Source: Sedimentisphaera cyanobacteriorum
GTDB lineage: Bacteria; Planctomycetota; Phycisphaerae; Sedimentisphaerales; Sedimentisphaeraceae
Reading direction: 5' to 3'
DNA length: 32,000 nt
NCBI RefSeq assembly: GCF_001997385.1
Contig: NZ_CP019633.1
Span: 240,001-272,000, forward strand
Shown: positions 10,944 through 32,000 of the stretch, piece after piece
How positions within the stretch are numbered: position 1 is the first letter of the stretch
How the letters are laid out: the number at the start of each line of letters is the position of its first letter
Position numbers and translations under genes: made by a program
The notes under the pieces: model-generated
The model's database searches: none
The model's input: the letters and a program-made list of their open reading frames with translations, nothing else
Told to the model about the DNA's origin: nothing

Positions 10944-10965
10944 AGCTTCAGTTTATAAGTCAGGG

Positions 10966-13300: not shown

Positions 13301-13330
13301 TAAGGAAAGATGAAGTTTATACAGCTAAGC

Positions 13331-15013: not shown

Positions 15014-15041
15014 AAATAATCCTCTTCAAAAAAGTTTAAGA

Positions 15042-16472: not shown

Positions 16473-16786
16473 TCTTAAGCCTCTTAAAGTTTAATGTTGC
16501 AATTTGTGCTTTAACTTTTTTTGTTATAAAGTAAATAGCTGATTTTTCAATATTTTACATAAATTCTGCACGGAATTTTTCATATACGAACTATATTCTT
16601 GCAATTTTTAAATAAACTGTTAAAATGTCTTTACAATTAGCTCACAATTAATTAAGTTCTTTTTTAAAGAATTTTTGTAAAAAACATTTAATTAAGCAGC
16701 AATTTTGTTAAAAAAGAACACAGTTTTAGTTTAAAAAAACGGCATTAAAATGGCCGGAGAAAGGTTTTATTAATAGGAAGGCAGTT

Positions 16787-17626: not shown

Positions 17627-17660
17627 CGTCTGAGTTAAACAGCTCAGGCGGTTTTTTTTT
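17627..17660 (+). terminator. Rho-independent terminator
   Basis: CGTCTGAG-loop-CTCAGGCG stem, followed by G and a T9 run, immediately after the stop codon. Confidence 0.7.
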
Positions 17661-17935
17661 GTTTTATGTGCTGAGTTATATAATGGGTATGAAAAATTGC
17701 ATTTTTATGTCCTAATTGGTGCCAGCTGGTTTATGATAATAAGCTGCTTTGAGAAAAAAAAACGGGCGATTATCTAACAAATTTGTTTTTTTAAAAAATT
17801 TTGTAAAAATTTCGTATTTGAGGCATTTATTAATTGTGAGGCAGTTTTACTGACTCAATAAATTAATATATAAGTTTAAAGATTCGGCCTTAAGCAAGAG
17901 GCTGTAAGAAAGGTTTTATTAATAGGAAGGCAGTT

Positions 17936-18793
17936 ATGAAAAAGAAGGCTTTTACACTGATCGAATTACTTGTAGTAATTTCAATTATCGCGCTTCTGAT
18001 GGCGGTTCTTATGCCGGCTCTTGGAAGAGCGAGAGAACAGGCCAAATCCACGGTCTGCCAGACACGCCTGAAGCAGTGGGGCGTTATCTGGAATATCTAT
18101 ACGGGCAAATACGGAGGCAGTTTCCCCAGTGCTAATGATATGGACAAAAGATACGGGATAAACTGGCCGCGTGGCGCATGGATTATTCCTCTTCGCCACG
18201 AATGGGAAACGAATAATGACATTTTAAGATGTCCTGAAGCGGAAACACCCAATGAAGACGGCGATTATGGAGATTTAGACGAGGCCTACTGGATGGGCAA
18301 CACTAATGTCGATGAGGAAGAGGATCTCGAAGTACAGGAATATGCCAGCTACGGGATGAACTGCTGGGCATTTGACGAACCGCCCGGAGCTCCTGATAAT
18401 ATTTATCAGGGAAGAGAGCAAAAGTATTACTGGCGTAATATAACGAGAGTTTCACGTGCAAATACGGTTCCGCTTTTTGCAGATGCTGTATGGCGAGGCG
18501 GCGGGCCTCACTATGAACGAGGCGAAACTGCAATCCAGCCATCCCAATACAATGGCAGCCAGGCTCCGCAAGAAGTGTATAATTTTAATGTTAGCTATGA
18601 AATGGCACACTTTACAGTGAGAAGGCACCCGAAGGGAACAAACCTCTTGTTTATGGACGGCTCGGTTAATAAGCTCAGTATCAAAGATCTCTACCACCAA
18701 AAATGGCACAGGAGATTCGATCTGCACGGCCGCTACTCAGAAGAAGATACCGAAGTTGACTGGCCTGAATGGATTGAAGACACTACAGACTAA
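17936..18793 (+). CDS. Prepilin-type N-terminal cleavage/methylation domain protein of the H-X9-DG class (paralog)
   Basis: The first 53 aa are identical to the upstream paralog. The HPKGTNLLFMDG motif and the C-terminal tail RYSEEDTEVDWPEWIEDTTD are also shared, while the middle diverges. Confidence 0.85.
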   Translation: MKKKAFTLIELLVVISIIALLMAVLMPALGRAREQAKSTVCQTRLKQWGVIWNIYTGKYGGSFPSANDMDKRYGINWPRGAWIIPLRHEWETNNDILRCPEAETPNEDGDYGDLDEAYWMGNTNVDEEEDLEVQEYASYGMNCWAFDEPPGAPDNIYQGREQKYYWRNITRVSRANTVPLFADAVWRGGGPHYERGETAIQPSQYNGSQAPQEVYNFNVSYEMAHFTVRRHPKGTNLLFMDGSVNKLSIKDLYHQKWHRRFDLHGRYSEEDTEVDWPEWIEDTTD

Positions 18794-18822
18794 CGTCTGA
18801 GATATTCTTTAGTGAATCATAA

Positions 18823-18856
18823 GCCGTCTGAGTTAAACAGCTCAGGCGGCTTTTTT
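18823..18856 (+). terminator. Rho-independent terminator
   Basis: GCCGTCTGAG-TTAAACAG-CTCAGGCGGC stem-loop followed by TTTTTT. Confidence 0.75.
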
Positions 18857-18978: not shown

Positions 18979-19692
18979 CTAAGCTGAGCTGCGGTTTTCT
19001 TCTGCGTCAGATAGACGCATATATTTTGGGGCAAAGCTGGATGGTTCCTGAAAGTTTTGCTTTTCAATTTCTAACACCGCAAGCCTGCACAGCGAGCTTG
19101 CCTTTACATCCCAAAAATCTTCCGGAAGAATAATATTCCCCTCAGCTTCAAACTTTTTTGAATAATATTTCAGGCCTTCTCCTAAAAGGGCGGTTCTGGT
19201 ATTTTTCCCGCCTGCCATTTCGATTATCTGTTCTGGCTTGAGAAGGGAATCTTCAATTTTCTTTTCCCAGCCCTCGCCATTAAATTCATACATTGATGAG
19301 AAAAACTGCCCCCTCTTTGCATCAAGCACAGGAATTATCCGGTCGAACTTTTCGCCGCTTTGATCGATGTATGCTTGGCAGTTTTCTCTGCACGCGTCCA
19401 GACTGCTTATTCCTAAAAGTTTAGCCCTGCCTGCCAAAACCATCATTTTTGCAGCGGTGATCCCGATTCGAAGGCCTGTATAGCTCCCTGGACCTTGTGT
19501 AACGGCCAGATAGGCAATTTCATTTACTCCTATATTCTCTTTTTGGAGAATATCTTTTGTTGAGGGTATAAGCTCAGCGGCGTGTCTGATCTGTCCGGAA
19601 AATTTTTTTTCGCATAAAATATTATTATCATTGCAAATCGCCGCTGAACCGGCTCTTCCTGACGTGTCTATACAGAGAATTATTTCAGCCAT
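18979..19692 (-). CDS. tsaB: tRNA threonylcarbamoyladenosine (t6A) biosynthesis protein TsaB
   Basis: 237 aa. The motifs ILCIDTSGRAGSAAI, HAAELIP and AVTQGPGSYTGLRIGITAAKMM match the YeaZ/TsaB pattern. Confidence 0.85.
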   Translation of the reverse strand: MAEIILCIDTSGRAGSAAICNDNNILCEKKFSGQIRHAAELIPSTKDILQKENIGVNEIAYLAVTQGPGSYTGLRIGITAAKMMVLAGRAKLLGISSLDACRENCQAYIDQSGEKFDRIIPVLDAKRGQFFSSMYEFNGEGWEKKIEDSLLKPEQIIEMAGGKNTRTALLGEGLKYYSKKFEAEGNIILPEDFWDVKASSLCRLAVLEIEKQNFQEPSSFAPKYMRLSDAEENRSSA

Positions 19693-19958
19693 TTTTCAAT
19701 ATTTCAAAAGAGTTTACAGATTATTTCTTGAAAGTTGCGAGATAATGTGGAATATATTCATCTTTCAGGGCGTGATGTCAAATTAAATTGGGTGAAAAAT
19801 CCAAATGACAATAAATTATTGACAGCGAAAGGTATTTTTGGCTTGCAAAGCTGAAGGCCTAACTATAAACTTAGCAGACTATTTCCGGAAATTTGTTTCC
19901 GGATCGGATAGCATATAAAATTGACACTTAATATACTTATACATTGCCGGAGGTAATA

Positions 19959-22900
19959 GTGGCTAATTTAGCGACACTTGTTGCACGTAAAGGAATGGTG
20001 TTACTAAGAACCGTTTTGGCCGTTGGGCTTATTGCTTTAGCTTCTACGGTTGTCGTTGGCTTTGCAGCTCAGGATGATGCTGCATTGACAAAGGCAGTTG
20101 ACGAGTACATCGAAGTTTGTCAGTCTCAGTACGACAAAGGCCTGTATTCTACAGCTAAAGACGGGCTTCTTGAAGCCAAGTCTGAATATTCTTCAGATAT
20201 GACCGAAGCTCAAAAGAGCCGGATTAATTCGATGCTTGAAAGGGTAAATCAGGCTATCGAGGCTCGAACCCGTGTTTCAGAGATGCTGGAAAACGGCAAG
20301 AAAGCTGTAAACAGCAAAGACTACAGCCAGGGGCTTGAGATGCTTAATCAGGTTGTCTCTGATAAGTATGCCAGCAAGGCTCAGGTTGAAGAGGCTAAGT
20401 CGGTCCTTGAATCTGCTGAAGAGTCTATGCAGAAGGTTGAAGAGCAGATGGAATCTCTGTTCGACGAAAGCGTATCGCTCTACAAAGACGGACTGCTGAG
20501 AGAAGCTATGCAGGGCTTCCAGAAGGTAAGCCGGAGCGGAGTTGATGTTTCCAACTGGTTCGGCAGAGACAGCGAATATTATATCGCCAAAATCAAAGAG
20601 GCGATGGATGCCGGCAGCAATGCAGAGCAAACGGCAGCTTCTAAGCAAACCGAACAGGCCTCCGCTGAGCAGAAAAAGCAGGAAAATGCCTCTGAGGGCA
20701 CCGCAAAGCAGGAAGCGATGGAGCTTTTCAAGCAGAGCGTTGAAGAGTATAAGGCCGGGAATTACGAAGCCGCAAAAGACGGATTCGAGGCAGTTGCAGA
20801 CAGCGGCTATGATATAAAGAATTTCTGGGGCAGAGACAGCGAATACTTCCTTCAGAAGATCAGTGATAAGAGCAAAGAGCTGGCTGAAGAGGCCGAAAAG
20901 GCAGAAGAAGAAGCCAGAATGGCCGAAGAGAAAAAGGCCAGAGAGAAGGAAGAAGCCGAGCAGAAAGCTCGTGAAGAGGCTATGGATAAGCTCTTCCGTG
21001 AGAGCGTGGAGCAGTATCGCGGGGGCAATTTTGATGCCGCTGAAGAGGGATTCCAGCTCGTTGAGAAAAGCGAATTCAATCCGAAATACTGGGGTAAAGA
21101 CAGCAGTGATTTCCTTGCTCGAATAGAAAAGGCTAGAAAGGCCAAGGCCGATAAGGCCGCAGAGGCTGCAGCTGAAAAGCAGACTGCTGAAAAGCAGACT
21201 GCTGAAAAGAAAGCAGAAAAAGCTCAGCAGGCTAAGCAGGAAAAGCCGGATATCAGCGCAGAGGCCAAAGCTTCCGAGCAGAAAAAATCCCCTGAGGCAA
21301 AAGAAGACAGCTATCTGAGGGTCCTCAGCGAAAAGAGGAACCGTCAGAGAGATTACACACGTGCGATAGTGAACGATGCAGTTACAAAGGCAAACCAGTA
21401 TCTCGGCGATGAGCAATTTGCCAAGGCAAGAGAGGCGCTCTCGGTGGCCTATGCAAACATCGAGAAAACCAAGATGCTCCTCGGCGATGAGCTATACAGC
21501 GAATATAAAACACGCCTGGATTCTCTCAGCACAAAGATAGACAACCTCCAGCAGGAGGCGAGGATCGAATCTGCCAAGATTGAACGTGAGCAGACTGAAG
21601 AGCTCGAGAAGGAGATACGCAGGGATATGGAACGTCAGCGCCAGCAGGCGGTGAAAGACTACATGGAAAACGCTATGGCCTTCCAGAGAGAGCAGCGTTA
21701 TGAAGAAGCCCTCGCTCAGCTCGAGGCCCTTCTCGCTATAGACCCGCTCAACAGTATGGCACTGCTCCAGAAGCAGACATTAGAGCAGACAATATCATGG
21801 CGCAAGCAGATTGAGGTTCAGAATAAGATGCACAGGGAAGAGATCGAAACCCTCATCAAAGCCGATGAGGCATCAATCCCTTATGCAGACGATATGACAT
21901 TCCCCTCCAACTGGAAGGAAATCGTTAAAAAGCGTGAACAGCGCGAGAGCGACGGAATGAGCAAGGAAAACCTTGATGTTTACCGTCTGCTTGATCAGAA
22001 GGTTGACCTCTCGGCATTATATGAAGATATGCCGTTCGGCGAGGCGCTTGAAGTGCTCAGGAATTCCACAAATCCTCCGCTGACGATTATCGTTCTCTGG
22101 AGAGATCTGGATGAAAATGCGTTTATCGACCAGACCACGCCAATAAACCTCACAATACCGGCTCCTGTGAAGGTTAAAACAGCCTTAGAGCTTCTGCTTG
22201 ATTCAGTTGCAGGCGGGCTTGCAGAGCTGAGCTATGTAGTTAAGGACGGGATCATACAGATTGCCACTATGGGCTCACTGCCCGATAAGATGGTTACAAA
22301 ACGCTACGATGTTCGTGAGCTCTTGGGCGAAACAGCGAACTTCAGCTTTGAGATGGACGTTTCAAACTACGGACAGAGCGAAGGAAGAACTGCCGGCGGT
22401 GGCGGCGGCGGCGGTGATGACTATGAATCCGACGATGATGACCAGCAGGAAGATACCCGCGACTCTCTAACCCAGAGAGCTTCCACACGTGCTCAGTCTA
22501 TTGTTAATCTGATTCAGGAAACTGTTGCACCGGAAACCTGGTACGATGCCGGCGGCGATGGTTCTATTACCACTTTCCAGAATAATGTGCTGGTAATCCG
22601 CCAAACCCTCGAACAACACGAGAAAATCAAAGAGCTTATAGACGAGCTCCGCCTTACTCTCGGCGAGCAGGTTGCAATTGAGGCAAGATTCCTCACGGTA
22701 ACTGAGAACTTCCTTGAGCAGATCGGAATTGATCTGGATATGGTAATCAATCCGGACGATTCCAACTGGAATGAGATCGCATTTACCCAATCTCACAAAT
22801 CAGGCGGCGCACCTTCAGATTCAGGCTTGCCGGGTTCTCTGGCAGGTGCAATTGCATCTTCAATGAACGGAAGCTATGTTATGGACGATCTTCAGGTGAG

Positions 22901-23525
22901 CTTCCTGATAGAGGCCACTCAGGCTCATAAAGACGCAAAGAGCCTGAATGCCCCGAGGGTAGCAGTGCTCAATGGTGAACGTGCGAGTATCAGAGTGGGC
23001 AAGGAAACAAGCTTCGTGAGCGATTACGAATTTGAAGACCTCTCAACTACAGGCGATAACCCGCTTGTAAGAACGATTGCAGACCCTGAGATCGACAGGA
23101 TACGTGATGGTGTTAATCTTACTGTTACTCCAACCATTACAGCGGACAAGAAATATGTGATTCTCGGGATACAGACTCAGTATCTCAAGACCAACTTCGA
23201 TACATATACAGTTCCTTCGGATACTGGAACTGGAACGCAAGAGTATCCTATCCAGCTCCCTGTGAGGGAAGAGGCGAGAATCGGTACGAGGGTAACTGTC
23301 CCTGACGGCGGAACCCTGCTAATTGGCGGGCAGAAGCTTACAGGCCAGAAAACCGCCGAGAGCGGAGTGCCGGTTTTGAGCAAAATGCCTTTCGTAGGCC
23401 CGCTGTTTGAAAACAGAGGCACGCTTAAAGACCAGAGCATCTTGCTCATACTCGTTAAGCCTTCCATTATCCTCAGGGACGAACAGGAAAAAGAAGCCGT
23501 GGATGCGATGGAAAGCAATTTCTAA
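19959..23525 (+). CDS. Secretin (type II/III secretion / type IV pilus secretin family) with an extended repeat-rich N-terminal region of about 700 aa
   Basis: The secretin C-domain reads LNAPRVAVLNGERASIRVG...DGVNLTVTPTITADKKYV...TVPDGGTLLIGG...SGVPVLSKMPFVGPLFENRG...ILLILVKPSII. Planctomycete-type motifs are present: TKRYDVRELL and IQETVAPETWYDAGGDGSI...VLVIRQT...HEKIKELIDELR. GTG 19959 has GGAGG 6 nt upstream and yields a signal-like N-terminus (ARKGMVLLRTVLAVGLIALAS). Alternative starts are TTG 19944 and ATG 19995. Confidence 0.9.
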   Translation: MANLATLVARKGMVLLRTVLAVGLIALASTVVVGFAAQDDAALTKAVDEYIEVCQSQYDKGLYSTAKDGLLEAKSEYSSDMTEAQKSRINSMLERVNQAIEARTRVSEMLENGKKAVNSKDYSQGLEMLNQVVSDKYASKAQVEEAKSVLESAEESMQKVEEQMESLFDESVSLYKDGLLREAMQGFQKVSRSGVDVSNWFGRDSEYYIAKIKEAMDAGSNAEQTAASKQTEQASAEQKKQENASEGTAKQEAMELFKQSVEEYKAGNYEAAKDGFEAVADSGYDIKNFWGRDSEYFLQKISDKSKELAEEAEKAEEEARMAEEKKAREKEEAEQKAREEAMDKLFRESVEQYRGGNFDAAEEGFQLVEKSEFNPKYWGKDSSDFLARIEKARKAKADKAAEAAAEKQTAEKQTAEKKAEKAQQAKQEKPDISAEAKASEQKKSPEAKEDSYLRVLSEKRNRQRDYTRAIVNDAVTKANQYLGDEQFAKAREALSVAYANIEKTKMLLGDELYSEYKTRLDSLSTKIDNLQQEARIESAKIEREQTEELEKEIRRDMERQRQQAVKDYMENAMAFQREQRYEEALAQLEALLAIDPLNSMALLQKQTLEQTISWRKQIEVQNKMHREEIETLIKADEASIPYADDMTFPSNWKEIVKKREQRESDGMSKENLDVYRLLDQKVDLSALYEDMPFGEALEVLRNSTNPPLTIIVLWRDLDENAFIDQTTPINLTIPAPVKVKTALELLLDSVAGGLAELSYVVKDGIIQIATMGSLPDKMVTKRYDVRELLGETANFSFEMDVSNYGQSEGRTAGGGGGGGDDYESDDDDQQEDTRDSLTQRASTRAQSIVNLIQETVAPETWYDAGGDGSITTFQNNVLVIRQTLEQHEKIKELIDELRLTLGEQVAIEARFLTVTENFLEQIGIDLDMVINPDDSNWNEIAFTQSHKSGGAPSDSGLPGSLAGAIASSMNGSYVMDDLQVSFLIEATQAHKDAKSLNAPRVAVLNGERASIRVGKETSFVSDYEFEDLSTTGDNPLVRTIADPEIDRIRDGVNLTVTPTITADKKYVILGIQTQYLKTNFDTYTVPSDTGTGTQEYPIQLPVREEARIGTRVTVPDGGTLLIGGQKLTGQKTAESGVPVLSKMPFVGPLFENRGTLKDQSILLILVKPSIILRDEQEKEAVDAMESNF
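20457..21134 (+). repeat. Three tandem 89-codon (267-nt) units inside the secretin gene
   Basis: The Leu-Phe anchor codons at 20457, 20724 and 20991 are exactly 267 nt apart. Each unit has a conserved core of about 49 aa, LF.(E/Q)SV..Y..G....A..GF..V..S......(W/F)(F/W)G(R/K)DS..(Y/F)...I, followed by a charged K/E/A/Q linker of about 40 aa. Confidence 0.85.
21171..21209 (+). repeat. 15-bp tandem nucleotide repeat (2.6 copies)
   Basis: GCTGAAAAGCAGACT occurs twice, followed by GCTGAAAAG. It encodes AEKQT-AEKQT-AEK. Confidence 0.8.
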
Positions 23526-23553
23526 AGCAAAGACGGATTTTAGTAATGCCTTG

Positions 23554-23581
23554 GCGCTCGGACGGTTATGCGCCGAGGCGC
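23554..23581 (+). other. GC-rich bulged hairpin in the secretin / giant-ORF spacer
   Basis: GCGCTCGG (23554-23561) pairs with CCGAGGCGC (23573-23581) with one bulged G. No U-tract follows, so this is not a canonical terminator. The loop contains an alternative in-frame ATG at 23568. Confidence 0.3.
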
Positions 23582-23624
23582 ATATTGCGAAATTATAACG
23601 ATAAGATATCAGCAGGATATATAT

Positions 23625-26600
23625 ATGGTTAAGCGAATATTTTCGTTACTGGTTGTAATGTTTGTCTCAGCGGCTGTTTTTGCAGCTCCGTATAACGGAG
23701 GGGTTTTCAAGGTACGCCAGCCTGACGGCAGCGTAGTTAAGGTTAGGGGATACGGCGACGAATTCTACGGCCGATTTGAAAGCCTTGACGGCTACACCCT
23801 GACTAATGACGAAGACGGTATGCTGGTTTATGCAGATATCAGCCAGGATGGTACTCAGTTCAAACCGCTTGATATCAGATACAACCCCACCGAACCTACA
23901 GACACTTCACTTCCGGAATTCCGGAACAGTACGGCTGCTGAGAATAACCGCGGGGTTTTTCCTGAAAGTCTTGATATAAAATCAGAGGTTATCAGGGAAA
24001 TTCGCCTGAACAAGATTGAAGAATATGAGGCTGATCAATATATGATTCCGGCTGAGCAGGGTCCTCAGAAACAGTCACTGCAGCAGCTTCCTTACGACCC
24101 GGAAACCTTTGAGCCTAAATACTACAGGCCTGTAACCGGTGAGATAGAAGGCCTTACAATTGTTATAGAATTTTCAGACATATCCGGAGACATACCAGTA
24201 TCAGCGGAGGAACTTGGCGATAACGAACAGAGATGCGTTGAGAATTTCTGCAACTTGGTCGGATACGACGCTGACGGTAACAACGGATCTATCAGAGATT
24301 ACTATTACGGAGTTTCCAACGGAAAGCTTACATATACAAATCAGGTGGCAGGATATTATACTGCTGAAAATGATTTTACTTACTATAATGACGGCCCGGG
24401 GACTGCCAGAGGGCTCATTAGAGAGGCTCTAAACGGCCTTGCAGACCAAATTGATGTTTCCACACTTACAATAGACCCTGCTACAGAAGAGGTTCAGGCA
24501 TTGAACGTGTTGTATGCAGGACAAAGGCCTAACGAATGGGGAGCAGGACTTTGGCCGCACAAGTATAATTTGAGTGCAGGCGGCGGTGCTACCGTAACCA
24601 TAGACGGAGCTACGTTCGATGTATATCAGATTACAGATATGGGTACTTCAGAAAATCCTGCGATGGAAATTGGTACATTCGCCCATGAAAACGGACATAT
24701 GCTTTGCGGTTATCCTGACCTGTACGATTATGGTTATGAATCCAGCGGAATCGGTTCTTACGGGCTGATGGCCGGCGGTTCATACGGCGGAAACGGAACA
24801 AATCCGATGGCTATAAACGGCTATTTCCGCTGGCTCAGCGGCTGGGAAATCCCTCAGTATCTTACCAGTGAAAGTGAAGGCAATCTGCACACCGCTTTAG
24901 GCAGCGAGATGCAGGCTACAGAAGCCCCTGAAGAAGACTGGGAAACCTTTGACGAATATCAGGGAAATATATTTGTATTTATGAACGAGGAAAATCTTGA
25001 AGAATTCTTCGTAATAGAAAATATAATCAATTCTGGCAGGAAAGGCTCTGCGGCAGATAACGGCCTTGCAGTATGGCATGTCGATGAAGGCAAGGGCGGA
25101 TACGGTGCTAACGACCAGGAGCATATGACTCCTGATAGGCATTATCATGTTTCGCTTGAACAGGCTGACGGAAATTTTGATCTCGAAAACGGGAATGGTC
25201 AGGGTGATGGAACTGATTTATTCGGCGCTCCCAGATTTCCGGAGTTTTACGCAGATCAGAATATTCAGCCAAATTCAGTTTGGTGGAACGGCGAACCTTC
25301 AGGTTTGAGACTTTATGAGATATCAGAGCCGGGCGGTGAGGTAACTTTCTATGCTGAAATATCTCCAAAATATGCAAGAATAGTTCGTCCAAGCGGTGCA
25401 GACCCCACTGATATGGCCAATGAAGTTGAGAGATTTAAGACTATTCAAGAAGCCTTTGATGCCGCTCAAGACGGAGATGATATCTACGTTGCAGACGGCT
25501 TCGAATACCACGAATTCCTCGATACGGTAGGCAAGAGCCTCGCTGTATATGCAGAGGCCGCAGACCCGAACGATCCTAACGATGACAACTGGCAGGACTA
25601 TATGGATGATTACAAATCCGTTCCTGTTGAGCCTACGAATATCGCATTTAATATCGATTATATGGATTACGATCCTGATATGGCCGGAGACCCGAACGAA
25701 ATTCCTTCTCTCACTGTTTCGCAGGGCGAGCAGGTGAGCTTTGAAGATTTTGCATTTACAGGGCATCCGTACTCAGCCATTAATGTTTCTAACAATTCTC
25801 TGGCAGTATTTGAAAGCTGCTCGTTCACTAAACACGGAACTGGAGCACCTAAAGAAGTAATAGATGATACCGGCCAGTTTGTTACAGATCCGGAAACAGG
25901 CGAGAATCTTGTAGCGCCTTCAATTGAATACAATGATTTCTCTGATAATACAAATGCCTTTGTCCTGGAAAATGGCAGCATAGAGCTCACAAACTGCGAA
26001 TTCTCGGGCAACATAGGCAGAGGAGACGGAGGTTCGTGTATTTACGGCGAGGGGCAGTCTTCTGTGATGGCCTCTGGTACCGAATTTGAAGGGAACTCCT
26101 CCAAATCCGACGGCGGTGCTGTTTTCTTCAAAGACGGATACGTAGAATTTTCTCGGTGCAGGTTTGAAGACAACGAAGCCAGATTCAACGGCGGCAGCAT
26201 CAGCCTTGAGTCTGTAGATGATAACAGCGTTATTAGAGATTCCCGTTTTGTATCAAACAGCGTAAATATTTACGGCGGTGCACTTTACAGCTCCGACTGT
26301 GCTGTAGAATTTGTGAATAATCTCCTTTATGAATGCACCTCCAGCTGGTATGGCGGGGCGTTGTATTTTGATTCTCCACATAATCAGAACAAAGTTTACA
26401 ACTGTACTTTTGATAATAACGACGGCCTCGTTGCAGGCGGAGCGATATACCTTACAGGTGCAGCAGGCCAGAGCCAGTTCTACAACAACATCTTCTCAAA
26501 TACCCCGGGTTACGCAGTTTACGAGGCGGCTGCCGGGATTGATGTGGAGCTTAAGAACAACCTATTCTTCAACAACGGAGCTGATTACTGGGATGAGAAT

Positions 26601-29600
26601 GTAGTTGGATATATTGGAGCCTCACAAGTTAACAATATACCGAATTCAACCGGCAACATCGATGATGACCCGATGTATGTTCAGGGCTATCTCGGAGACC
26701 ATTACCTGAGCAATGAAGGTGCAGGGCAGATTCTTGATCAGTACAACAGGCTTGCTTCTGACTTGGGCAGCTCTGCTACAAGCCCATGTGTTGATGCCGG
26801 GTATGGTGAGCCTTCCGATTTTGATATTGATAGCCTCTCTACCAGAACAGACAATGCCCCTGATGACAATGATTCAGCTGATATTGGATACCACTATAAC
26901 GACCCGAATCAGGTTTATGGCGGTGTTTTCAAGGTGTCTATCAATGTTTCGCCGAAAGAAGGCGGACAGGCAGCTGGAAACTTTACATTGTCTGATAATC
27001 CTTCCGGGCAGGAATACGTGTACGGTTTCGACCCGGCTGATCCGAACAACTTCAACGTGAAGCCTTTCGAGCAGGTAGTCCTTGAGGTATCCTCGGACAG
27101 CTCATATATGTTCGAGAAATGGCTGGATGAAGACGGCGAGCAGATGACGGAGATCCTCGGAGGCGATGACCCGGACTCTGATTTCTACGCATTCTACGAT
27201 GAAAACGGCCAGCCGATGTATGTTGATAATGAAATTGGCGGCGAACCATACAAGATTGTTATGACTATCGATCAGCACAGGGAATTCTTTGCTGAGCTCG
27301 TTAAACAGAGAGTAGAGCTTACGGTTTACGTTAAGAGCGGAAACGGCAAAGTTTATCAGGACGGCGAGCTTACGCCGGTTAAAGAATACGCAAAAGGCGA
27401 GGTAGTAGATCTAAGAGTTGAGCCGCTCGAGTCTGAGCATAAAGTTCGCTGGACAGGCACGGATAACGACGCCTCTTTGAGCCTGAAGAATCAGGTTACA
27501 GTCCGAGAGCAGCAGCAGGTTGTGGAAGTTGAATTCTACCAGCCGAATGTCTGGACTGTGGGCATGCAGGGAGACAGCAACCTCTCTGATGTTGTCAGGA
27601 ATATTCTGGTTGACCCGACCTTCGAAGACGGCGATGTTATTCAAGTTTTGCCGGGCGAATATTCTTGGGATGATAATACATATCCAGACACTGGATTAGT
27701 TATAAATATTGACAGGCCGGTTGTTATTGAAGGCGCTACGGGCAACCCTGATGATGTGTCTATAAGAGACGGAATCTGGAACTTCTGGGATGTCGGCAGA
27801 AATACAATAATAAGAAATATCACCTTCGACCATACCGGACAGACTTACAGAACACTGACGAACTATAATGGCAAAACCCCTGAGAACCCGTTCTTTAACG
27901 GTGATAACGGAACCCCGGGCGGAGGTTCTGTAATGAGGTTCTGCTCGCTGTTCGTTCCGGAATACGAATGGATGAACTACGGGAACAGCTATTATCCTGT
28001 ACTAACGCAAGGCCCTGAAGAGGGGAAATGGATTACGGCTTCGCCCACCATTGAGAACTGCAGCTTTATTAATGCAACTTTCGATGTTGCAGACGGCAGC
28101 AATGGAGCATCTGATGATTCTAACTTCGGCGAAGGCGGCTGGCCCGGATACACGCTGGGCGGTGCGGTAACTATAAGCGATTTCTGCGAGCCGAGGTTTG
28201 TAAACTGCACTTTCCAAGGATGTGAAATACAGGGCGGACACGGCGGAAACGGCGCCGGTATTGCAGGATACGGCGGAATGTGGGATTCTCCGGAAAATCC
28301 AGCTTTCGGATATGATGATGATGATATTTATGGAGCAGGCAATATAGGATTCCCAAGATTTGTTCTGCCTTTCCATAAACGAGGCATATATTACTTTACG
28401 TACGAAGTTGCCGGAGATGACGGATTAGAGCAGATAGATGTCCTCGGCGGAGTGGGCTATCCATCCCCTGTTCCTGAACAGAATTTGATGTATTCTTATT
28501 ACAACAGTTACGGCAGCGCCTACTACGGGAATTTCTCTTCTATAGAGCCAAAAGCCAGCTACGGCGGACGCGGCGGTGCTGTGTATATAGGCATCGGCGC
28601 AAGACCGGAATTCGTTTCGTGCGATTTTATAGAGAACAATTCTCAAAGCGGTTCCAGCGGTGTTCGAGGCGGCTCTGGGGCGAGCCCGAGGCAGCACTGG
28701 AGAGTACCTTCGTTTGGCGGAGCTGTTTTCTGCGATGCGAGAAGTGAACCGCTGTTTGAAGACTGCCTGTTCAGGGATAACATCGCAAACTACGAAATTC
28801 CTACTACTCATCCCGATGGCGGTGAGATTCAGGAAGACAACAGCTATATGAGCTACGGCGGTGCAGTTTATGCAAACAGAAACTCTCTGCCCGTGTTCCG
28901 TAAATGCCGCTTTGAAGGCAACGAGGCTGTTGTAGGCGGTGCGATTGCTGTGGACAATATCGGCGTAATCAATGACGAAACCGACCAGATAGAGAATCTT
29001 ATCGTTGAAGACTGCACTTTTACTGGCAACATATCTTCAGTTGGCGGTGCTGTAACAAGTGCCGGCGGTTCTCAGAGCAGATATGAATTCCTTTCCGAGG
29101 ATCCTCTCTTCCCGGGTATCGGGCCTCTGATATATACCGACGATCAGGGCAATCAGTATGATGTTTACAGATGGAATTTCGCTGTTGGCCAGAAAGAAGA
29201 CCAGATCACAGGCGAGCCTTGGGGACCAAAGCTCAACGAGACTGTATCTCATTCTGCCGGCTTCAGCGCATTTATTAGAAACGACTTCATCGAAAATACG
29301 GCTAATCTGTTTATCACCGATATCAGAGCCAGCTATACAGACGAAGACGGCAATGTCTTAGATCCGGTGGATCTCGGGGAATACAGCAGGGCAGGCCTTG
29401 GCGGGGCGTTGGCGCTTTTCACCAGCAAGAATCAGATTGTTGACTGCGTGCTGAGCGAAAATGTCAGCGGCGGCTTCGGCGGCGGTATGTATATCTCAGG
29501 AAAAACTCTCACTGATGTATTAGAGACAACCGAATACAGATCTACATATCTGCGGAATGTGCTTCTTAATAACAACTACTCCGCATTCGGCGGAGGCGGA

Positions 29601-32000
29601 TTATGCACCAGCAAATATTCAGACCCGCAGCTTATCAACTGTACTCTGGCAGATAATGTCGTTACAAGCTCTACCGGCAAAGGCGGCGGTCTGCTTGCAA
29701 CTAACGACAGCTATATTTCAGCAATAAACAGCATATTCTACGGCAACCTCAGCTCTAACGGGGCTCAGATTGCTGTTAATGAGGTGAATGAAGGCGAGCC
29801 TTCAACTGCAGATGTAAGGTACAGCCTTATCGAAGAAGGCAACGTTCAGCAGGCACCGATAGATATGGGCATTGAAGCAGTAAGGCCTGTTAGGAATCCG
29901 GCAGAATCAACATACAGCATATCTGATCAGGAAATTCTGCTCGAATCTGAAACAGACCTCTATGTCTTCGATGCTGAAGAATACGGGAACGACTTCTCAT
30001 CCTCGCTGATTGAGATGGGCTTTACCGTAAACTTCTACGAGCAGACTACCAACAGCGTGTTCGTGAATGAAAACGGCTGCATATCATTCTGGCAGGCGCT
30101 CTCTGAGATACAGAACTATCTTCTCAGCAGTGATTTGGGCACGCCGGTAATCGCACCGTTCCATGCGGATGTGGATACCAGCAGAGGCAATACCGCCAAA
30201 GCGGCCCGCGGAACTGCACGAGTGCTTACAGAAGACGGGTCTTACATCGACACTAAGGTGTTTGCTGTAACGTGGAATGAAGTGGGCTATTATGAGTCTC
30301 ATCTGGACAAGGTAAACAAGTTCCAGTTAGTTCTAATAGACAGAAGCGACCGCGGCGAGAATGATTTCGATATCGAATTCAACTACGACCAGATCGAATG
30401 GGAGACCGGAGACGACCAGAACGGAGCCGACGGGCTCGGCGGAAATTCTGCTGTTGTAGGTTTCTCAGACGGAACAGGCAGCCCGGGCAGCTTCTACGAG
30501 CTCAGCGGAAGCGGGCAGCCAAGCGCCTTCCTCGATAACAGCACAACAGCTCTTATCGCCCGTTCGAGAAACAGCAACGCAATGGGACGTCTTGTATTCC
30601 GTGTTAAAGAAGGCCAGCCCCATATTAAATACGGCAGCCCTGTATATACCAACGGAAGCTCCAAGATAAACTACAACGCAGATTTCGACAGATGGGACCC
30701 GGCAGCGAATAATATCGTTGGCGATCCTGTATGGGCGCAGGAAGGCGTTTATTATCTCAACAAGAAATCCATAGCAATAGACCCGAACAAGCCTGAGAGC
30801 CCATGCTTTGACAAGGGTGCAGGCAATGCGAGGGATTACGATATCTACAGGCATACTACAACTACTGACAACGAGCTCGATGTTGACCGTGTTGATATCG
30901 GATACCATTATGTTCTTCCGACAACTGAAGGGCTCGAGGGCGATTTCAACTTTGACGGGGTGATTAGTCAGTTTGAATCTGTAGAGTCTATGGCGGAATA
31001 CTGGCTCGACGAGTGCTACCCGCCATACTGGTGCCACGGACGCGATCTCAACCAAGACGGGATCGTGAATACCCTTGACAGAACGGTAATGGCAAGCCTC
31101 AGCGAGGTGGATTCTGTAGCTCCCCAGCCTCTTTACGGAGAGAACGGCGAGCTGGTAGAGCAGGACTTCACTGAAAACCAGCCCCGCAGGATGACTTGGG
31201 AAACCAAGCCGATTTCAAACGGCTCAGGCGTGGGCGAGATTCGTATGGTGGCAAGCCTGACTACTGACAACTGCATCGGCTCTGTGGAGTATCAGTTCCA
31301 GATGACATACCCGGAAGCCAAGATTGCACGGGACTGGGGCGTTTCAAGAGAATTCCTCGATACCGGCCTGAATGTAGGGGATGAATATGCATACCGCTGC
31401 AGGGCAAGAGATGCTCAGGGCAATGAAACCAAGTGGTCTCTTGCGGGCAGAACTGTTGCAGGCGACGATTCAACGCCTCCGATTACCGATCTGAACGCAG
31501 AAAATATTTATAAGTCTAAATGGGCTCTATCTGAAACAGGTATGCTTCTCAGCCCGCACGTAGTGAACGTTGCAGGCGGATTGGCAGATATAAAGATGGT
31601 AGCTGTTGAAGCAACAGACGAAAACGGCGTAGAATACTACTTCGAATGCACAAGCGGCAACGGGCACGACAGCGGCTGGATCGAAGAGCCTGAATACATC
31701 GATACTGATCTGCCGGTTGGCGAGCTCTATACTTACAGAGTACGCACAAGAGACCTCTCCAGAAACTTCAACCTCGGCGAATGGTCTGATGAGGCCTCTG
31801 CGTTTGCAAGCATTGAAAACATAATCGATACCGAGCCGCCGGCTCCTCTGAGCTACATAATAGGCGCTGATATCGTAGATGGCGAATATTTGATATGGGA
31901 TGATTATGTATATCATACTATCACCGCTGTTACAGATTCGATTGATATATCTCAGCCTGTATGGTATCAGTTTATCTGCCTGACAAACAGCAGCTTGAGC
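23625..32000 (+). CDS. Giant secreted multidomain protein, 3'-truncated by the window edge: M6/InhA-like metalloprotease, Pmp-like parallel beta-helix modules, InlB-B-repeat-like, NIDO-like, dockerin-like and FN3-like domains
   Basis: This ORF is not in the supplied track. I translated codons by hand from ATG 23625 (positions divisible by 3) to base 32000 and found 2,792 codons with no stop. The signal peptide is MVKRIFSLLVVMFVSAAVFA. The zinc site is FAHENGHMLCGYPDLYDYG, with HEXXH at 24684-24698. There are at least 10 GGA(I/V/L) motifs plus (C/F)xFxxN motifs, and two SPC(V/F)D(A/K)G...DIGYHY caps. The NIDO-like stretch reads FTVNFYEQTTNSVFVNENGCISF...FQLVLIDRSD...DFDIEFNYDQIEWETGD. Confidence 0.9.
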   Translation, partial: MVKRIFSLLVVMFVSAAVFAAPYNGGVFKVRQPDGSVVKVRGYGDEFYGRFESLDGYTLTNDEDGMLVYADISQDGTQFKPLDIRYNPTEPTDTSLPEFRNSTAAENNRGVFPESLDIKSEVIREIRLNKIEEYEADQYMIPAEQGPQKQSLQQLPYDPETFEPKYYRPVTGEIEGLTIVIEFSDISGDIPVSAEELGDNEQRCVENFCNLVGYDADGNNGSIRDYYYGVSNGKLTYTNQVAGYYTAENDFTYYNDGPGTARGLIREALNGLADQIDVSTLTIDPATEEVQALNVLYAGQRPNEWGAGLWPHKYNLSAGGGATVTIDGATFDVYQITDMGTSENPAMEIGTFAHENGHMLCGYPDLYDYGYESSGIGSYGLMAGGSYGGNGTNPMAINGYFRWLSGWEIPQYLTSESEGNLHTALGSEMQATEAPEEDWETFDEYQGNIFVFMNEENLEEFFVIENIINSGRKGSAADNGLAVWHVDEGKGGYGANDQEHMTPDRHYHVSLEQADGNFDLENGNGQGDGTDLFGAPRFPEFYADQNIQPNSVWWNGEPSGLRLYEISEPGGEVTFYAEISPKYARIVRPSGADPTDMANEVERFKTIQEAFDAAQDGDDIYVADGFEYHEFLDTVGKSLAVYAEAADPNDPNDDNWQDYMDDYKSVPVEPTNIAFNIDYMDYDPDMAGDPNEIPSLTVSQGEQVSFEDFAFTGHPYSAINVSNNSLAVFESCSFTKHGTGAPKEVIDDTGQFVTDPETGENLVAPSIEYNDFSDNTNAFVLENGSIELTNCEFSGNIGRGDGGSCIYGEGQSSVMASGTEFEGNSSKSDGGAVFFKDGYVEFSRCRFEDNEARFNGGSISLESVDDNSVIRDSRFVSNSVNIYGGALYSSDCAVEFVNNLLYECTSSWYGGALYFDSPHNQNKVYNCTFDNNDGLVAGGAIYLTGAAGQSQFYNNIFSNTPGYAVYEAAAGIDVELKNNLFFNNGADYWDENVVGYIGASQVNNIPNSTGNIDDDPMYVQGYLGDHYLSNEGAGQILDQYNRLASDLGSSATSPCVDAGYGEPSDFDIDSLSTRTDNAPDDNDSADIGYHYNDPNQVYGGVFKVSINVSPKEGGQAAGNFTLSDNPSGQEYVYGFDPADPNNFNVKPFEQVVLEVSSDSSYMFEKWLDEDGEQMTEILGGDDPDSDFYAFYDENGQPMYVDNEIGGEPYKIVMTIDQHREFFAELVKQRVELTVYVKSGNGKVYQDGELTPVKEYAKGEVVDLRVEPLESEHKVRWTGTDNDASLSLKNQVTVREQQQVVEVEFYQPNVWTVGMQGDSNLSDVVRNILVDPTFEDGDVIQVLPGEYSWDDNTYPDTGLVINIDRPVVIEGATGNPDDVSIRDGIWNFWDVGRNTIIRNITFDHTGQTYRTLTNYNGKTPENPFFNGDNGTPGGGSVMRFCSLFVPEYEWMNYGNSYYPVLTQGPEEGKWITASPTIENCSFINATFDVADGSNGASDDSNFGEGGWPGYTLGGAVTISDFCEPRFVNCTFQGCEIQGGHGGNGAGIAGYGGMWDSPENPAFGYDDDDIYGAGNIGFPRFVLPFHKRGIYYFTYEVAGDDGLEQIDVLGGVGYPSPVPEQNLMYSYYNSYGSAYYGNFSSIEPKASYGGRGGAVYIGIGARPEFVSCDFIENNSQSGSSGVRGGSGASPRQHWRVPSFGGAVFCDARSEPLFEDCLFRDNIANYEIPTTHPDGGEIQEDNSYMSYGGAVYANRNSLPVFRKCRFEGNEAVVGGAIAVDNIGVINDETDQIENLIVEDCTFTGNISSVGGAVTSAGGSQSRYEFLSEDPLFPGIGPLIYTDDQGNQYDVYRWNFAVGQKEDQITGEPWGPKLNETVSHSAGFSAFIRNDFIENTANLFITDIRASYTDEDGNVLDPVDLGEYSRAGLGGALALFTSKNQIVDCVLSENVSGGFGGGMYISGKTLTDVLETTEYRSTYLRNVLLNNNYSAFGGGGLCTSKYSDPQLINCTLADNVVTSSTGKGGGLLATNDSYISAINSIFYGNLSSNGAQIAVNEVNEGEPSTADVRYSLIEEGNVQQAPIDMGIEAVRPVRNPAESTYSISDQEILLESETDLYVFDAEEYGNDFSSSLIEMGFTVNFYEQTTNSVFVNENGCISFWQALSEIQNYLLSSDLGTPVIAPFHADVDTSRGNTAKAARGTARVLTEDGSYIDTKVFAVTWNEVGYYESHLDKVNKFQLVLIDRSDRGENDFDIEFNYDQIEWETGDDQNGADGLGGNSAVVGFSDGTGSPGSFYELSGSGQPSAFLDNSTTALIARSRNSNAMGRLVFRVKEGQPHIKYGSPVYTNGSSKINYNADFDRWDPAANNIVGDPVWAQEGVYYLNKKSIAIDPNKPESPCFDKGAGNARDYDIYRHTTTTDNELDVDRVDIGYHYVLPTTEGLEGDFNFDGVISQFESVESMAEYWLDECYPPYWCHGRDLNQDGIVNTLDRTVMASLSEVDSVAPQPLYGENGELVEQDFTENQPRRMTWETKPISNGSGVGEIRMVASLTTDNCIGSVEYQFQMTYPEAKIARDWGVSREFLDTGLNVGDEYAYRCRARDAQGNETKWSLAGRTVAGDDSTPPITDLNAENIYKSKWALSETGMLLSPHVVNVAGGLADIKMVAVEATDENGVEYYFECTSGNGHDSGWIEEPEYIDTDLPVGELYTYRVRTRDLSRNFNLGEWSDEASAFASIENIIDTEPPAPLSYIIGADIVDGEYLIWDDYVYHTITAVTDSIDISQPVWYQFICLTNSSLS

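What the first reader, a model, noticed from the sequence alone, without database searches (positions are those of the whole stretch)
19959..32000. Secretin gene directly followed by the giant exoprotein gene: candidate dedicated secretin-cargo module
The secretin CDS ends at 23525 and the giant ORF starts 99 bp later on the same strand. The spacer contains only a bulged GC hairpin (23554-23581) with no U-tract, so co-transcription is plausible. The gene upstream of the secretin (tsaB) is divergent. No T2SS or T4P ATPase, platform, prepilin peptidase or major pilin gene is adjacent; the only related genes are the two H-X9-DG pseudopilin-like genes about 1.1 kb upstream. A stand-alone secretin paired with one very large protease/adhesin substrate is not a described secretion arrangement that I can name. 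It could be a minimal outer-membrane export or anchoring system for this protein.
Basis: inference. Interest (0 to 1): 0.75.

Follow-up and report, generated by a model that had tools for sequence, protein, structure and literature searches.

The report
Conserved secretin–giant exoprotein gene pair
In Sedimentisphaera and many related Phycisphaerae, a gene for an outer-membrane secretin channel is followed by a gene for a giant secreted protease/adhesin-like protein, which suggests the giant leaves the cell through that channel, but nothing shows the two genes form a self-sufficient export system.

Summary
The window comes from Sedimentisphaera cyanobacteriorum. It carries a divergent tsaB, an 1188-aa secretin (19959-23525), and a 99-bp spacer with a strong hairpin that lacks a U-tract. 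Then comes an open reading frame of more than 2792 aa with a signal peptide, an M6 protease domain, PMP/beta-helix repeats and a NIDO domain. No pilus or T2SS motor genes lie in the window.

The pair recurs in about 18 distinct loci of the tsaB-linked clade, which is probably Sedimentisphaerales. Secretin identity there runs from 92% down to 30%. The usual order is tsaB(-)|secretin|giant|aroC(-)|aroA(-).

The "stand-alone minimal system" reading is not supported:
- The same secretin family is encoded without neighbouring motor genes in about 57 Phycisphaerae loci.
- It persists without the giant gene in six Anaerohalosphaeraceae-like loci and in Phycisphaerales-type loci.
- It keeps an N0-like domain, which in known secretins docks inner-membrane partners.
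- tsaB, which is functionally unrelated, is linked to the secretin even more stably than the giant gene is.
- The hairpin after the secretin gene recurs in orthologues, and in two of them it looks like a canonical terminator.

The giant's protease head varies between M6, S8 and none.

Best reading (0.42): the giant is a linked cargo of a clade-wide orphan secretin, driven by machinery encoded elsewhere. This would be a new variant of a known kind. Interest 0.5.

The parts
18979..19692 (-). tsaB (TsaD/Peptidase_M22 family, 237 aa), divergent from the secretin. It is the most stably linked neighbour of the secretin in this clade.
   Evidence: Pfam TsaD E=4e-24. tblastn finds it upstream and divergent in about 20 genome loci and 7 metagenome loci.
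19693..19958 (+). tsaB-secretin intergenic region. It has a conserved block with TTGCAA (19843-19848), 15 nt, then TATAAA (19864-19869), which may be the secretin promoter. GGAGG at 19949-19953 precedes the GTG start.
   Evidence: Alignment of four orthologous intergenic regions and the sequence itself. That this block is a promoter is inference only.
19959..23525 (+). Secretin, 1188 aa.
- aa 1-40: N-terminal hydrophobic segment, either a signal peptide or a membrane anchor.
- Up to about aa 660: E/K/A-rich coiled-coil/TPR-like region of roughly 600 aa. It holds repeats that contain a GxDSxY motif, and the family motif QREQRYEEALAQLEALLAIDPLN.
- aa 669-784: N0-like domain.
- aa 792-831: poly-Gly/acidic linker.
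- aa 834-915: one ring-type N domain.
- aa 973-1171: secretin barrel.
   Evidence: Pfam Secretin E=2e-26. The best NCBIfam hits (MshL, GspD, PilQ) all score far below their cutoffs. PDB sequence hits are pIV, PilQ and GspD. In the AF2 model, the top 40 Foldseek hits are all secretins. The N0 model matches the N0 domains of PilQ, XcpQ and LspD.
23548..23579 (+). Stem-loop between the two genes (GCCTTGGCGC ... GCGCCGAGGC) with no U-tract after it. A hairpin with an unrelated stem sequence sits at the same place in orthologues.
   Evidence: z-scores are -2.1 here and -4.4 to -6.4 in L002, L004 and L010. Canonical hairpin-plus-T-run terminators do occur elsewhere in the window, after 17626, after 18793 and below 13331.
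23625..32000 (+). Giant exoprotein gene, cut off by the end of the window (the S. salicampi orthologue is 2938 aa).
- aa 1-21: Sec signal peptide.
- aa 216-485: M6 metalloprotease domain with HENGH.
- about aa 700-2070: right-handed beta-helix with Chlam_PMP repeats.
- aa 2143-2328: NIDO domain.
- C-terminal part: dockerin-like and FN3-like modules.
   Evidence: Translation. TIGR03296 scores 147.9 bits against a cutoff of 110.8. Pfam Beta_helix, NIDO, Peptidase_M6 and Chlam_PMP. Orthologues.
16787..17626 (+). Pseudopilin-like gene 1 (prepilin N-terminal methylation motif plus DUF1559/H-X9-DG). It shows that the cell has type IV filament-type machinery, but it is probably not part of the pair.
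   Evidence: Such a gene is not conserved next to the trio in L002 or L004.
17936..18793 (+). Pseudopilin-like gene 2, a tandem duplicate of gene 1 (76% aa identity). The duplication includes the leader and the terminator.
   Evidence: S. salicampi has a single copy.

Best explanation
This is a conserved two-gene neighbourhood, not a complete machine.

The first gene encodes a secretin that resembles PilQ and GspD. It has an N0-like domain, one ring-type N domain and the secretin barrel. Ahead of these it carries an unusual periplasmic coiled-coil/TPR extension of about 600 aa. This secretin family is found across Phycisphaerae and is always encoded away from its presumed inner-membrane partners.

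The second gene encodes a giant protein that is exported by the Sec pathway. Its head is a variable protease domain (M6 here; S8 or none in relatives). Its body is a long PMP-type beta-helix followed by NIDO and FN3-like modules. It has no outer-membrane translocator domain of its own.

The most likely mechanism has three steps:
1. Sec takes the giant protein into the periplasm. This follows from its signal peptide.
2. The giant crosses the outer membrane through the neighbouring secretin, or is displayed there. This is inferred from the conserved adjacency and from the lack of any barrel or sorting domain in the giant.
3. A type II secretion or type IV filament-type apparatus encoded elsewhere in the genome drives the passage. 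This is inferred from the N0-like domain, from the prepilin-type genes in the window, and from the secretin persisting in lineages that lack the giant gene.

The recurring hairpin after the secretin gene probably uncouples the expression levels of the two genes, acting as a leaky terminator or a 3' stabiliser. This too is inference.
For: **Identity of the two genes.**

**Recurrence of the pair, starting from the secretin.**
- S. salicampi L001 (secretin 92% identical).
- L002/L009 (70%).
- L004 and L010 (about 61%; the giant has an S8 head).
- L011 and L012 (43-46%).
- L025 (30%).
- L070.
- Sources.

**Recurrence of the pair, starting from the giant.** A metagenome scan found eight further distinct cassettes of the form tsaB(-)|secretin|giant|aroC(-): L079/81/87, L080, L083, L084/90, L086, L089, L095 and L096.

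**Arrangement.** In every case where the two genes are adjacent, the giant gene lies downstream of the secretin gene on the same strand, with a spacer of roughly 90-480 nt.

**Age of the linkage.** In the NJ tree, two of the three subclades of the tsaB-linked clade have the giant gene in every locus. Both were also detected by tblastn (8 of 8 and 2 of 2). The adjacency is therefore probably ancestral.

**Flank turnover.** In Sedimentisphaeraceae the genes outside the trio differ between L001, L002 and L004.

**No translocator of its own.** The giant has PMP/beta-helix passenger-type repeats, but neither Pfam nor inspection of the orthologues' C-termini found an autotransporter barrel or a known sorting signal.

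**Machinery elsewhere.** The N0-like domain is modelled at pLDDT of about 90, and its best structural matches are the N0 domains of PilQ, XcpQ and LspD. Two prepilin-type genes lie in the window.
Against: - No experiment and no co-expression data are available.
- tsaB, aroC and aroA are functionally unrelated to secretion but belong to the same conserved block. tsaB is linked to the secretin more widely than the giant gene is. The adjacency could therefore be inherited gene order and nothing more.
- Six Anaerohalosphaeraceae-like loci keep tsaB|secretin|aroC without any giant gene.
- In L074 the giant gene sits 4.7 kb away, beyond aroC and aroA.
- Three relatives of the giant's body (L076, L078, L094) have no secretin gene upstream.
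- Two orthologues (L011, L081) have what looks like a canonical terminator between the genes.
- I could not inventory the rest of the Sedimentisphaera genome. Whether it holds other secretins, or where GspE/F- or PilB/C-type genes lie, is unknown for this organism.
Confidence: 0.42

Rival explanations
1. The adjacency is inherited gene order without functional coupling. The secretin is a core, general-purpose outer-membrane channel for pili or type II secretion, and it sits in a stable housekeeping block (tsaB ... aroC-aroA). The giant gene is a fast-evolving occupant of the intergenic slot, exported by some other route or by the general pathway without any special relationship to this secretin.
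For: - The tsaB-secretin linkage is broader than the secretin-giant linkage.
- The frame tsaB|secretin|[giant]|aroC|aroA recurs with and without the giant gene.
- The secretin family persists in Phycisphaerales-type loci with carA, STAS and priA as neighbours.
- The giant gene varies from 1112 to 7107 aa and its head domain changes between lineages.
- Body relatives L076, L078 and L094 have no secretin gene nearby.
- A hairpin, and in some orthologues a terminator, separates the genes.
Against: - The giant gene is always on the same strand, directly downstream, in about 18 distinct loci spanning secretin identities of 30-92%.
- The trio survives flank rearrangements in Sedimentisphaeraceae.
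- Large, fast-evolving surface genes normally relocate easily, yet this one stays put.
- The giant has no translocator of its own.
Confidence: 0.3
2. This is the first reader's idea in its strong form: a self-sufficient "two-partner" module. The secretin would be a dedicated translocator or anchor for this one giant protein, with no type II or pilus motor. Its own N-terminal hydrophobic segment and 600-aa extension would span the periplasm in place of an inner-membrane platform.
For: - No ATPase or platform gene lies within 10 kb in any locus of the family.
- The N-terminal hydrophobic stretch of about 20 residues is long for a signal peptide, and it is followed by a very long coiled-coil/TPR extension that matches no known structure.
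- The gene order resembles the channel-cargo layout of TpsB-TpsA pairs.
- A second secretin family exists in the order. The general pilus or secretion role could therefore belong to another secretin.
Against: - Orthologous secretins exist without an adjacent giant gene.
- The N0-like domain, which in known secretins docks inner-membrane partners, is retained.
- No known secretin works without an energised inner-membrane assembly (established knowledge).
- No secretin feature co-varies with presence of the giant gene.
- The second secretin family is equally orphan, so lack of neighbouring motor genes is a habit of these genomes and not a sign of autonomy.
Confidence: 0.1
3. The giant protein is not a released cargo but a partner of a filament or of the channel itself. 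It could be a PilY1-like tip or surface adhesin presented by a type IV filament that passes through this secretin. It could also be a surface fibre that stays threaded in or docked on the secretin.
For: - The secretin is closer to pilus secretins than to GspD. MshL gives the best NCBIfam score, and the best structural matches are V. cholerae competence-pilus PilQ and BfpB.
- The giant has adhesin-type modules (beta-helix, NIDO, FN3-like, dockerin-like), and L070 has a weak VWA hit.
- Pseudopilin genes follow the giant-type gene in L012 and L094 and lie near the pair in the window.
Against: - Pseudopilin-like genes of this type appear to be numerous and scattered in these genomes (prior knowledge, not tested here). 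Their proximity may therefore be chance, and it is not conserved in L002 or L004.
- No similarity to PilY1 was found.
- Protease heads (M6 or S8) fit a secreted or surface enzyme at least as well as a tip adhesin.
Confidence: 0.1

Closest known systems
Type II secretion substrates encoded next to their secretion genes (E. coli SslE/YghJ beside the T2SS-beta gsp cluster; Klebsiella pulA beside pulC-O). From prior knowledge, not tested here.
   Same: A large Sec-dependent exoprotein, and for SslE a very large metalloprotease, is encoded directly beside the gene for the secretin-type channel that exports it.
   Different: In those systems the whole apparatus of 12-15 genes is adjacent. Here only the secretin is. 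The secretin also scores far below the GspD model cutoff (107.6 against 351 bits) and has one ring domain, not N1-N3.
Type IV pilus secretins (PilQ, MshL, BfpB)
   Same: These give the best family scores and fold matches. The layout of N0, ring domain and barrel is shared. Prepilin-type genes are present in the genome.
   Different: The scores are below every curated cutoff. There are no AMIN domains and no pilMNOP genes upstream. A coiled-coil/TPR extension of about 600 aa with no known relative takes their place.
Two-partner secretion (type Vb: TpsB channel plus TpsA beta-helix exoprotein)
   Same: The gene for an outer-membrane channel lies next to the gene for a giant, Sec-dependent, right-handed beta-helix exoprotein that has no translocator of its own.
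   Different: The channel here is a secretin, not an Omp85/POTRA protein. No TPS (Haemagg_act) domain was found in the giant. This is a resemblance in layout only.
Chlamydial polymorphic membrane proteins and other autotransporter passengers
   Same: Chlam_PMP repeats (34.9 bits against a cutoff of 20.6) lie within a right-handed beta-helix.
   Different: No C-terminal autotransporter barrel is present. Orthologues end in an acidic low-complexity tail.
M6 (InhA-like) metalloprotease-headed multidomain proteins
   Same: The N-terminal domain passes the TIGR03296 cutoff and has HENGH. More than 40 large proteins share this head.
   Different: Those proteins have unrelated bodies. The two whose surroundings I examined are not next to a secretin gene. 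Within the cassette the head can be S8 or absent.

Membership tests
Secretin superfamily (PF00263) | C-terminal secretin beta-barrel domain | tested here: met
   Pfam E=2.1e-26, 93 bits against a cutoff of 27.5. PDB sequence hits are pIV, PilQ and GspD. The top 40 Foldseek matches of the model are all secretins.
Secretin superfamily (PF00263) | Periplasmic N0 domain followed by at least one ring-building N domain | tested here: met
   In the AF2 model, aa 669-784 have pLDDT of about 90 and a ring-type domain spans aa 834-915. The N0 model's best matches are PilQ N0 (4ar0), XcpQ N0-N2, LspD N0 and STN domains. Their E-values are modest (0.012-0.06) with TM about 0.48.
Secretin superfamily (PF00263) | Forms a 12-15-mer gated pore in the outer membrane | not testable with these tools
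   Needs biochemistry or cryo-EM.
T2SS secretin GspD | Passes the GspD equivalog model (TIGR02517) | tested here: not met
   107.6 bits against a cutoff of 351.35.
T2SS secretin GspD | Encoded in a gsp operon with gspC, E, F and G-M | tested here: not met
   No such gene is in the 32-kb window or within 10 kb in about 57 related loci.
T2SS secretin GspD | Four N domains (N0-N3) | tested here: inconclusive
   The model shows N0 plus one ring domain. The region upstream of aa 660 was not modelled, and by sequence it looks like coiled coil/TPR.
T4P secretin PilQ / MshL | Passes the PilQ (TIGR02515) or MshL (TIGR02519) model | tested here: not met
   97.8 bits against 284.35 for PilQ, and 118.9 against 250.2 for MshL.
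T4P secretin PilQ / MshL | pilMNOP genes upstream, or AMIN domains | tested here: not met
   tsaB lies upstream and is divergent. No AMIN hit was found.
Two-partner secretion (T5bSS) | Omp85-type TpsB channel with POTRA domains | tested here: not met
   The channel is a secretin.
Two-partner secretion (T5bSS) | N-terminal TPS domain in the cargo | tested here: not met
   Pfam gave no Haemagg_act/TPS hit, even at E up to 0.5 on the N-terminal 600 aa.
Autotransporter / Pmp | C-terminal beta-barrel translocator | tested here: not met
   None was found in the last 488 aa of the full-length S. salicampi orthologue. The C-termini are acidic low-complexity tails.
M6 metalloprotease domain proteins | M6 catalytic domain with HExxH | tested here: met
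   TIGR03296 scores 147.9 bits against a cutoff of 110.8. Pfam Peptidase_M6 E=1e-7. HENGH is present in the translation.
Operon (co-transcribed unit) of secretin and giant genes | No terminator and no internal promoter between the genes | tested here: inconclusive
   A strong hairpin without a U-tract sits here and in close relatives. L011 and L081 have a T-run after their hairpin. A TTGCRR hexamer upstream of several giant-gene starts might be a promoter element. Settling this needs RNA data.

The most novel reading that the evidence does not exclude
The secretin is the dedicated outer-membrane partner of this single giant beta-helix protein, giving a secretin-based analogue of two-partner secretion or of LapE/LapA-type tethering. 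The secretin's own N-terminal membrane segment and its 600-aa coiled-coil/TPR arm would bridge the wide planctomycete periplasm. General pilus and secretion functions would be served by the separate lipoprotein secretin family.
Probability: 0.1. Interest if true: 0.85.

Novelty: new variant of a known kind. Interest (0 to 1): 0.5.

Why it matters
It is not known how Planctomycetota move their many giant surface proteins across the outer membrane. Secretins have so far been studied only inside compact, multi-gene machines. A secretin gene that stays beside one giant exoprotein gene across an order-level clade offers a concrete hypothesis linking a channel to its cargo. Sedimentisphaera cyanobacteriorum and S. 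salicampi are cultured, so the hypothesis can be tested. If it holds, this would be the first assigned export route for a planctomycete giant protein, and it would show how a secretin encoded away from its partners finds a substrate. If it fails, the locus still illustrates how far conserved gene order can mislead in this clade, since tsaB is even more tightly linked to the secretin.

Tried and rejected
- **Genome scan with all nine secretin relatives (A1).** It failed because no stretch was conserved enough. The seven-sequence alignment A2 worked. That scan did not return the two Sedimentisphaera isolate genomes themselves.
- **Whole-genome inventory of other secretins and of GspE/F- or PilB/C-type genes in S. 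cyanobacteriorum.** No tool gives access to the rest of the genome. I used my last protein search on the second secretin found in an Anaerohalosphaeraceae chromosome. It revealed a large lipoprotein secretin family (856 hits), but no Sedimentisphaera member appeared among the 120 hits listed. The question stays open for this organism.
- **Literature.** Searches for Sedimentisphaera, for secretin with Planctomycetes or Planctomycetota, for prepilin with Phycisphaerae, for DUF1559 and for orphan or stand-alone secretin found nothing on this gene pair. The genus description paper is not in the library.
- **The M6 head as the conserved partner of the secretin.** Rejected. More than 40 M6-headed proteins have unrelated bodies, and the two whose surroundings I examined lack a secretin gene. 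Orthologues within the cassette carry S8 or no head.
- **A secretin feature that tracks presence of the giant gene** (GxDSxY repeats, poly-Gly linker, length). None does.
- **Sigma-54 reading of the conserved TGGCTTGCA block upstream of the secretin.** Rejected because the GG-to-GC spacing is 4 nt, not 10.
- **A known RNA family in the spacer or leader.** There is no Rfam match near its gathering score.
- **N-terminal 659 aa of the secretin against the PDB and Pfam.** Nothing significant.
Full report
**1. What is in the window**

The secretin protein is 100% identical to a protein of Sedimentisphaera cyanobacteriorum (Phycisphaerae, Planctomycetota) from a 2.95-Mb contig. The ORF map, translations and domain scans give the following layout.

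- 14-16472: sugar and sulfatase metabolism genes, an ECF sigma/FecR pair, an IS4-type transposase, DUF167, a DUF748/YhdP-like protein, argJ, and a weak MipA-like match (E=0.0035, below the Pfam cutoff).
- 16787-17626 and 17936-18793: two prepilin-type DUF1559/H-X9-DG genes.
- 18979-19692 (-): tsaB.
- 19959-23525 (+): the secretin.
- 23625 to the window end (+): an ORF open for 2792 codons.

The spacer is 99 nt. The GC hairpin has arms at 23548-23557 and 23570-23579, folds at about -22 to -24 kcal/mol, and has no U-tract after it. tsaB is divergent. No pilus or T2SS ATPase, platform protein or prepilin peptidase is in the window. A GGAGG five nucleotides upstream and the database annotation both favour the GTG at 19959 as the secretin start.

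**2. The two proteins**

*Secretin (1188 aa).*
- It has a clear C-terminal secretin domain (Pfam E=2e-26).
- Curated NCBI models rank MshL, then GspD, then PilQ, and all score far below their cutoffs.
- PDB sequence matches are phage pIV, PilQ and GspD.
- An AF2 model of aa 660-1188 (mean pLDDT 66.6) shows five parts:
  - an N0-like domain (aa 669-784, pLDDT about 90);
  - a disordered poly-Gly/acidic linker;
  - one ring-type N domain;
  - the barrel;
  - a terminal helix.
- Its 40 best structural matches are all secretins, led by V. cholerae competence-pilus PilQ and BfpB.
- The N0 region modelled alone (pLDDT 83) matches the N0 domains of PilQ, XcpQ and LspD and the related STN and DotD folds. 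The scores are modest (E 0.012-0.06, TM about 0.48).
- The first 660 residues or so are a hydrophobic N-terminal segment followed by an E/K/A-rich coiled-coil/TPR-like region. This region contains repeats that hold a GxDSxY motif. It has no relative in the PDB or Pfam.

*Giant protein.*
- It has a Sec signal peptide.
- Its M6 metalloprotease domain passes the curated cutoff and contains HENGH.
- It has long right-handed beta-helix stretches with Chlam_PMP repeats, a NIDO domain, and dockerin-like and FN3-like C-terminal modules.
- Full-length orthologues end in an acidic low-complexity tail. They have no autotransporter barrel and no recognisable sorting signal.

**3. Synteny, searching from the secretin**

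Protein relatives and their contigs, plus a scan of species-representative genomes (61 loci), were compared with the window proteins by tblastn and by ORF maps.

- The divergent pair tsaB|secretin is present in about 20 loci, with secretin identity from 30% to 92%.
- A large secreted beta-helix protein follows the secretin directly, on the same strand, in these loci:
  - S. salicampi (2938 aa);
  - L002/L009 (2894 aa);
  - L004 and L010 (2743 and 2724 aa, with a Peptidase_S8 head in place of M6);
  - L011 (more than 637 aa, cut by the contig end);
  - L012 (1112 aa, no protease head);
  - L025 (more than 3330 aa);
  - L059, in fragmented form.
- Six Anaerohalosphaeraceae-like loci (L015, L016, L018, L020, L023, L033) have a convergent chorismate synthase gene there in its place.
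- More distant Phycisphaerales-type relatives (27-32% identity) lack both tsaB and the giant gene. Their secretin lies among carA, STAS/anti-sigma and priA-type genes.

In an NJ tree of the secretins the tsaB-linked clade is monophyletic and has three subclades. Two of them always carry the giant gene (8 of 8 and 2 of 2 loci). The third never does (0 of 6). The simplest history is an ancestral adjacency that was lost once.

**4. Synteny, searching from the giant**

- Only three database proteins resemble the whole body of the giant. The other hits, more than 40, share only the M6 head.
- Two such M6-headed proteins are not near any secretin gene.
- The S8-headed 3712-aa relative lies in tsaB(-)|secretin|giant|aroC(-)|aroA(-).
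- A metagenome scan with the giant alignment, analysed, found eight further distinct cassettes with that same frame: L079/81/87, L080, L083, L084/90, L086, L089, L095 and L096. Their giants range from 2397 to 4888 aa.
- In L074 a 7107-aa giant gene lies beyond aroC and aroA, 4.7 kb from the secretin gene.
- Three body relatives have no secretin gene upstream: L076 and L094 with 8-10 kb of upstream sequence, and L078 with 3 kb of housekeeping genes.

**5. What this does and does not show**

Several results argue against a self-contained system.

1. In none of about 57 Phycisphaerae loci does a GspE/PilB-type ATPase lie within 10 kb of this secretin family, whereas outgroup loci do have one.
2. 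A second family of tandem lipoprotein secretins in an Anaerohalosphaeraceae chromosome is equally isolated from motor genes. Scattered encoding is therefore a habit of these genomes.
3. The secretin survives without the neighbouring giant gene in whole lineages.
4. The retained N0-like domain points to an inner-membrane partner.
5. The prepilin-type genes in the window imply that a prepilin peptidase and an assembly machine exist elsewhere in the genome. This rests on established knowledge of type IV filament systems.
6. tsaB, aroC and aroA show that unrelated genes also keep their place in this block. That weakens synteny as functional evidence.
7. No sequence feature of the secretin tracks the presence of the giant gene.

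**6. The spacer**

- A stable stem-loop lies 18-30 nt after the secretin stop in the window, L001, L002/9, L004 and L010. The stem sequences are unrelated between these loci, and the z-scores reach -6.4.
- Hairpins also follow the secretin gene in the more distant cassettes.
- The window shows that this genome does use canonical hairpin-plus-T-run terminators, after both pseudopilin genes and after one sulfatase gene. The absence of a U-tract in the spacer hairpin is therefore meaningful.
- However, L011 and L081 do have T-runs after their hairpins.
- A TTGCRR hexamer lies 19-41 nt upstream of several giant-gene start codons. It resembles the conserved TTGCAA-15 nt-TATAAA block upstream of the secretin gene.
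- In the more distant cassettes the same hexamer lies at the 5' end of the spacer, and in at least L089 it falls within the hairpin arms.
- I therefore cannot decide between read-through and separate transcription.
- No Rfam family matches.

**7. Verdict**

The best-supported reading (0.42) is a linked channel-cargo pair. The giant Sec-dependent protein would leave through, or be displayed at, the neighbouring PilQ/GspD-like secretin, driven by type II secretion or type IV filament machinery encoded elsewhere.

The rivals are:
- inherited synteny only (0.30);
- a truly autonomous secretin-cargo module (0.10);
- a filament-tip or channel-tethered adhesin (0.10).

The secretin fails the membership tests for GspD, PilQ and MshL, but it is a clear member of the secretin superfamily. 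The pair resembles two-partner secretion in layout only. I rate it a new variant of a known kind, with interest 0.5. It is a good and testable lead in cultured organisms, but there is no evidence of a new kind of secretion machine.

Noticed in passing
Giant gene N-terminus, window 23625-25424, compared with L004 13693-, L010 5015-, L070 8001-, L011 10296- and L012 13179-: Orthologous giants at the same locus have different heads on a conserved beta-helix/NIDO/FN3 body. The head is an M6 metalloprotease in Sedimentisphaera and L002, a Peptidase_S8 with a propeptide-like start in L004, L010, L070 and probably L025, and absent in L011 and L012.
   Followed up: partly
L033 19936-23021 = L073 10001-13665 (Anaerohalosphaeraceae chromosome OY775912.1): This is a second secretin family. 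Two tandem lipoprotein secretins (592 and 629 aa, with a lipobox LAGCG) lie 7 kb from the long secretin, also with no ATPase nearby. The family has 856 database hits. Whether Sedimentisphaera has it is unknown.
   Followed up: partly
window 16649-18856: The pseudopilin-like gene is tandemly duplicated with a period of about 1.15 kb (76% aa identity). The duplication includes the leader and near-identical canonical terminators (CGTCTGAGTTAAACAGCTCAGGCGG plus a T-run). S. salicampi has a single copy, so the duplication is recent.
   Followed up: yes
window 7048-9082: An IS4/DDE transposase gene (540 aa) lies with a second, oppositely oriented IS4 fragment (8639-9082). They sit between the ECF/FecR pair and the 110-aa/DUF167 genes. 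The corresponding S. salicampi region (L001) has an ArsP gene just upstream of the 110-aa/DUF167 genes, with no transposase among the called genes.
   Followed up: no
window 19843-19869, and the same block in L001, L002 and L004: A conserved block ATTTTTGGCTTGCAAAG ... CTATAAAC (TTGCAA-15 nt-TATAAA) lies about 100 nt upstream of the secretin start in four orthologues. It may be the secretin promoter. A pair of TTCCGGA motifs (about 19883-19905) follows it, but these are conserved only between the two Sedimentisphaera species.
   Followed up: partly
L005 4765-5684, L007 10184-11396 and about 10 other Phycisphaerales-type loci: In the Phycisphaerales-type branch the orthologous secretin is followed, on the same strand, by STAS (anti-sigma antagonist) and HATPase_c_2 (anti-sigma kinase) genes in 7-12 loci. 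This is a different conserved neighbour for the same secretin family.
   Followed up: no
Secretin aa 150-440 (window about 20400-21280): Three repeats of about 45 aa (YKxGxxxEAxxGFxxVxxSGxDVxxxFGRDSEYYxxKI) are embedded in E/K/A-rich coiled coil. Two of them match the strict GxDSxY pattern used. They occur in Sedimentisphaeraceae and in L011/L012 in variable number, are absent from other branches, and have no Pfam or PDB relative.
   Followed up: partly
L089 8344-8420, L070 7700-7760, L083 6017-6065: The post-secretin hairpin of these more distant cassettes shares sequence (TTTGCAAAT.GTTCCTGCA ... hairpin ... TGATTTGCAG). The leader just before the giant start shares a GGAGCAGRAA motif. This may be a conserved regulatory RNA or DNA element specific to the cassette.
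   Followed up: no
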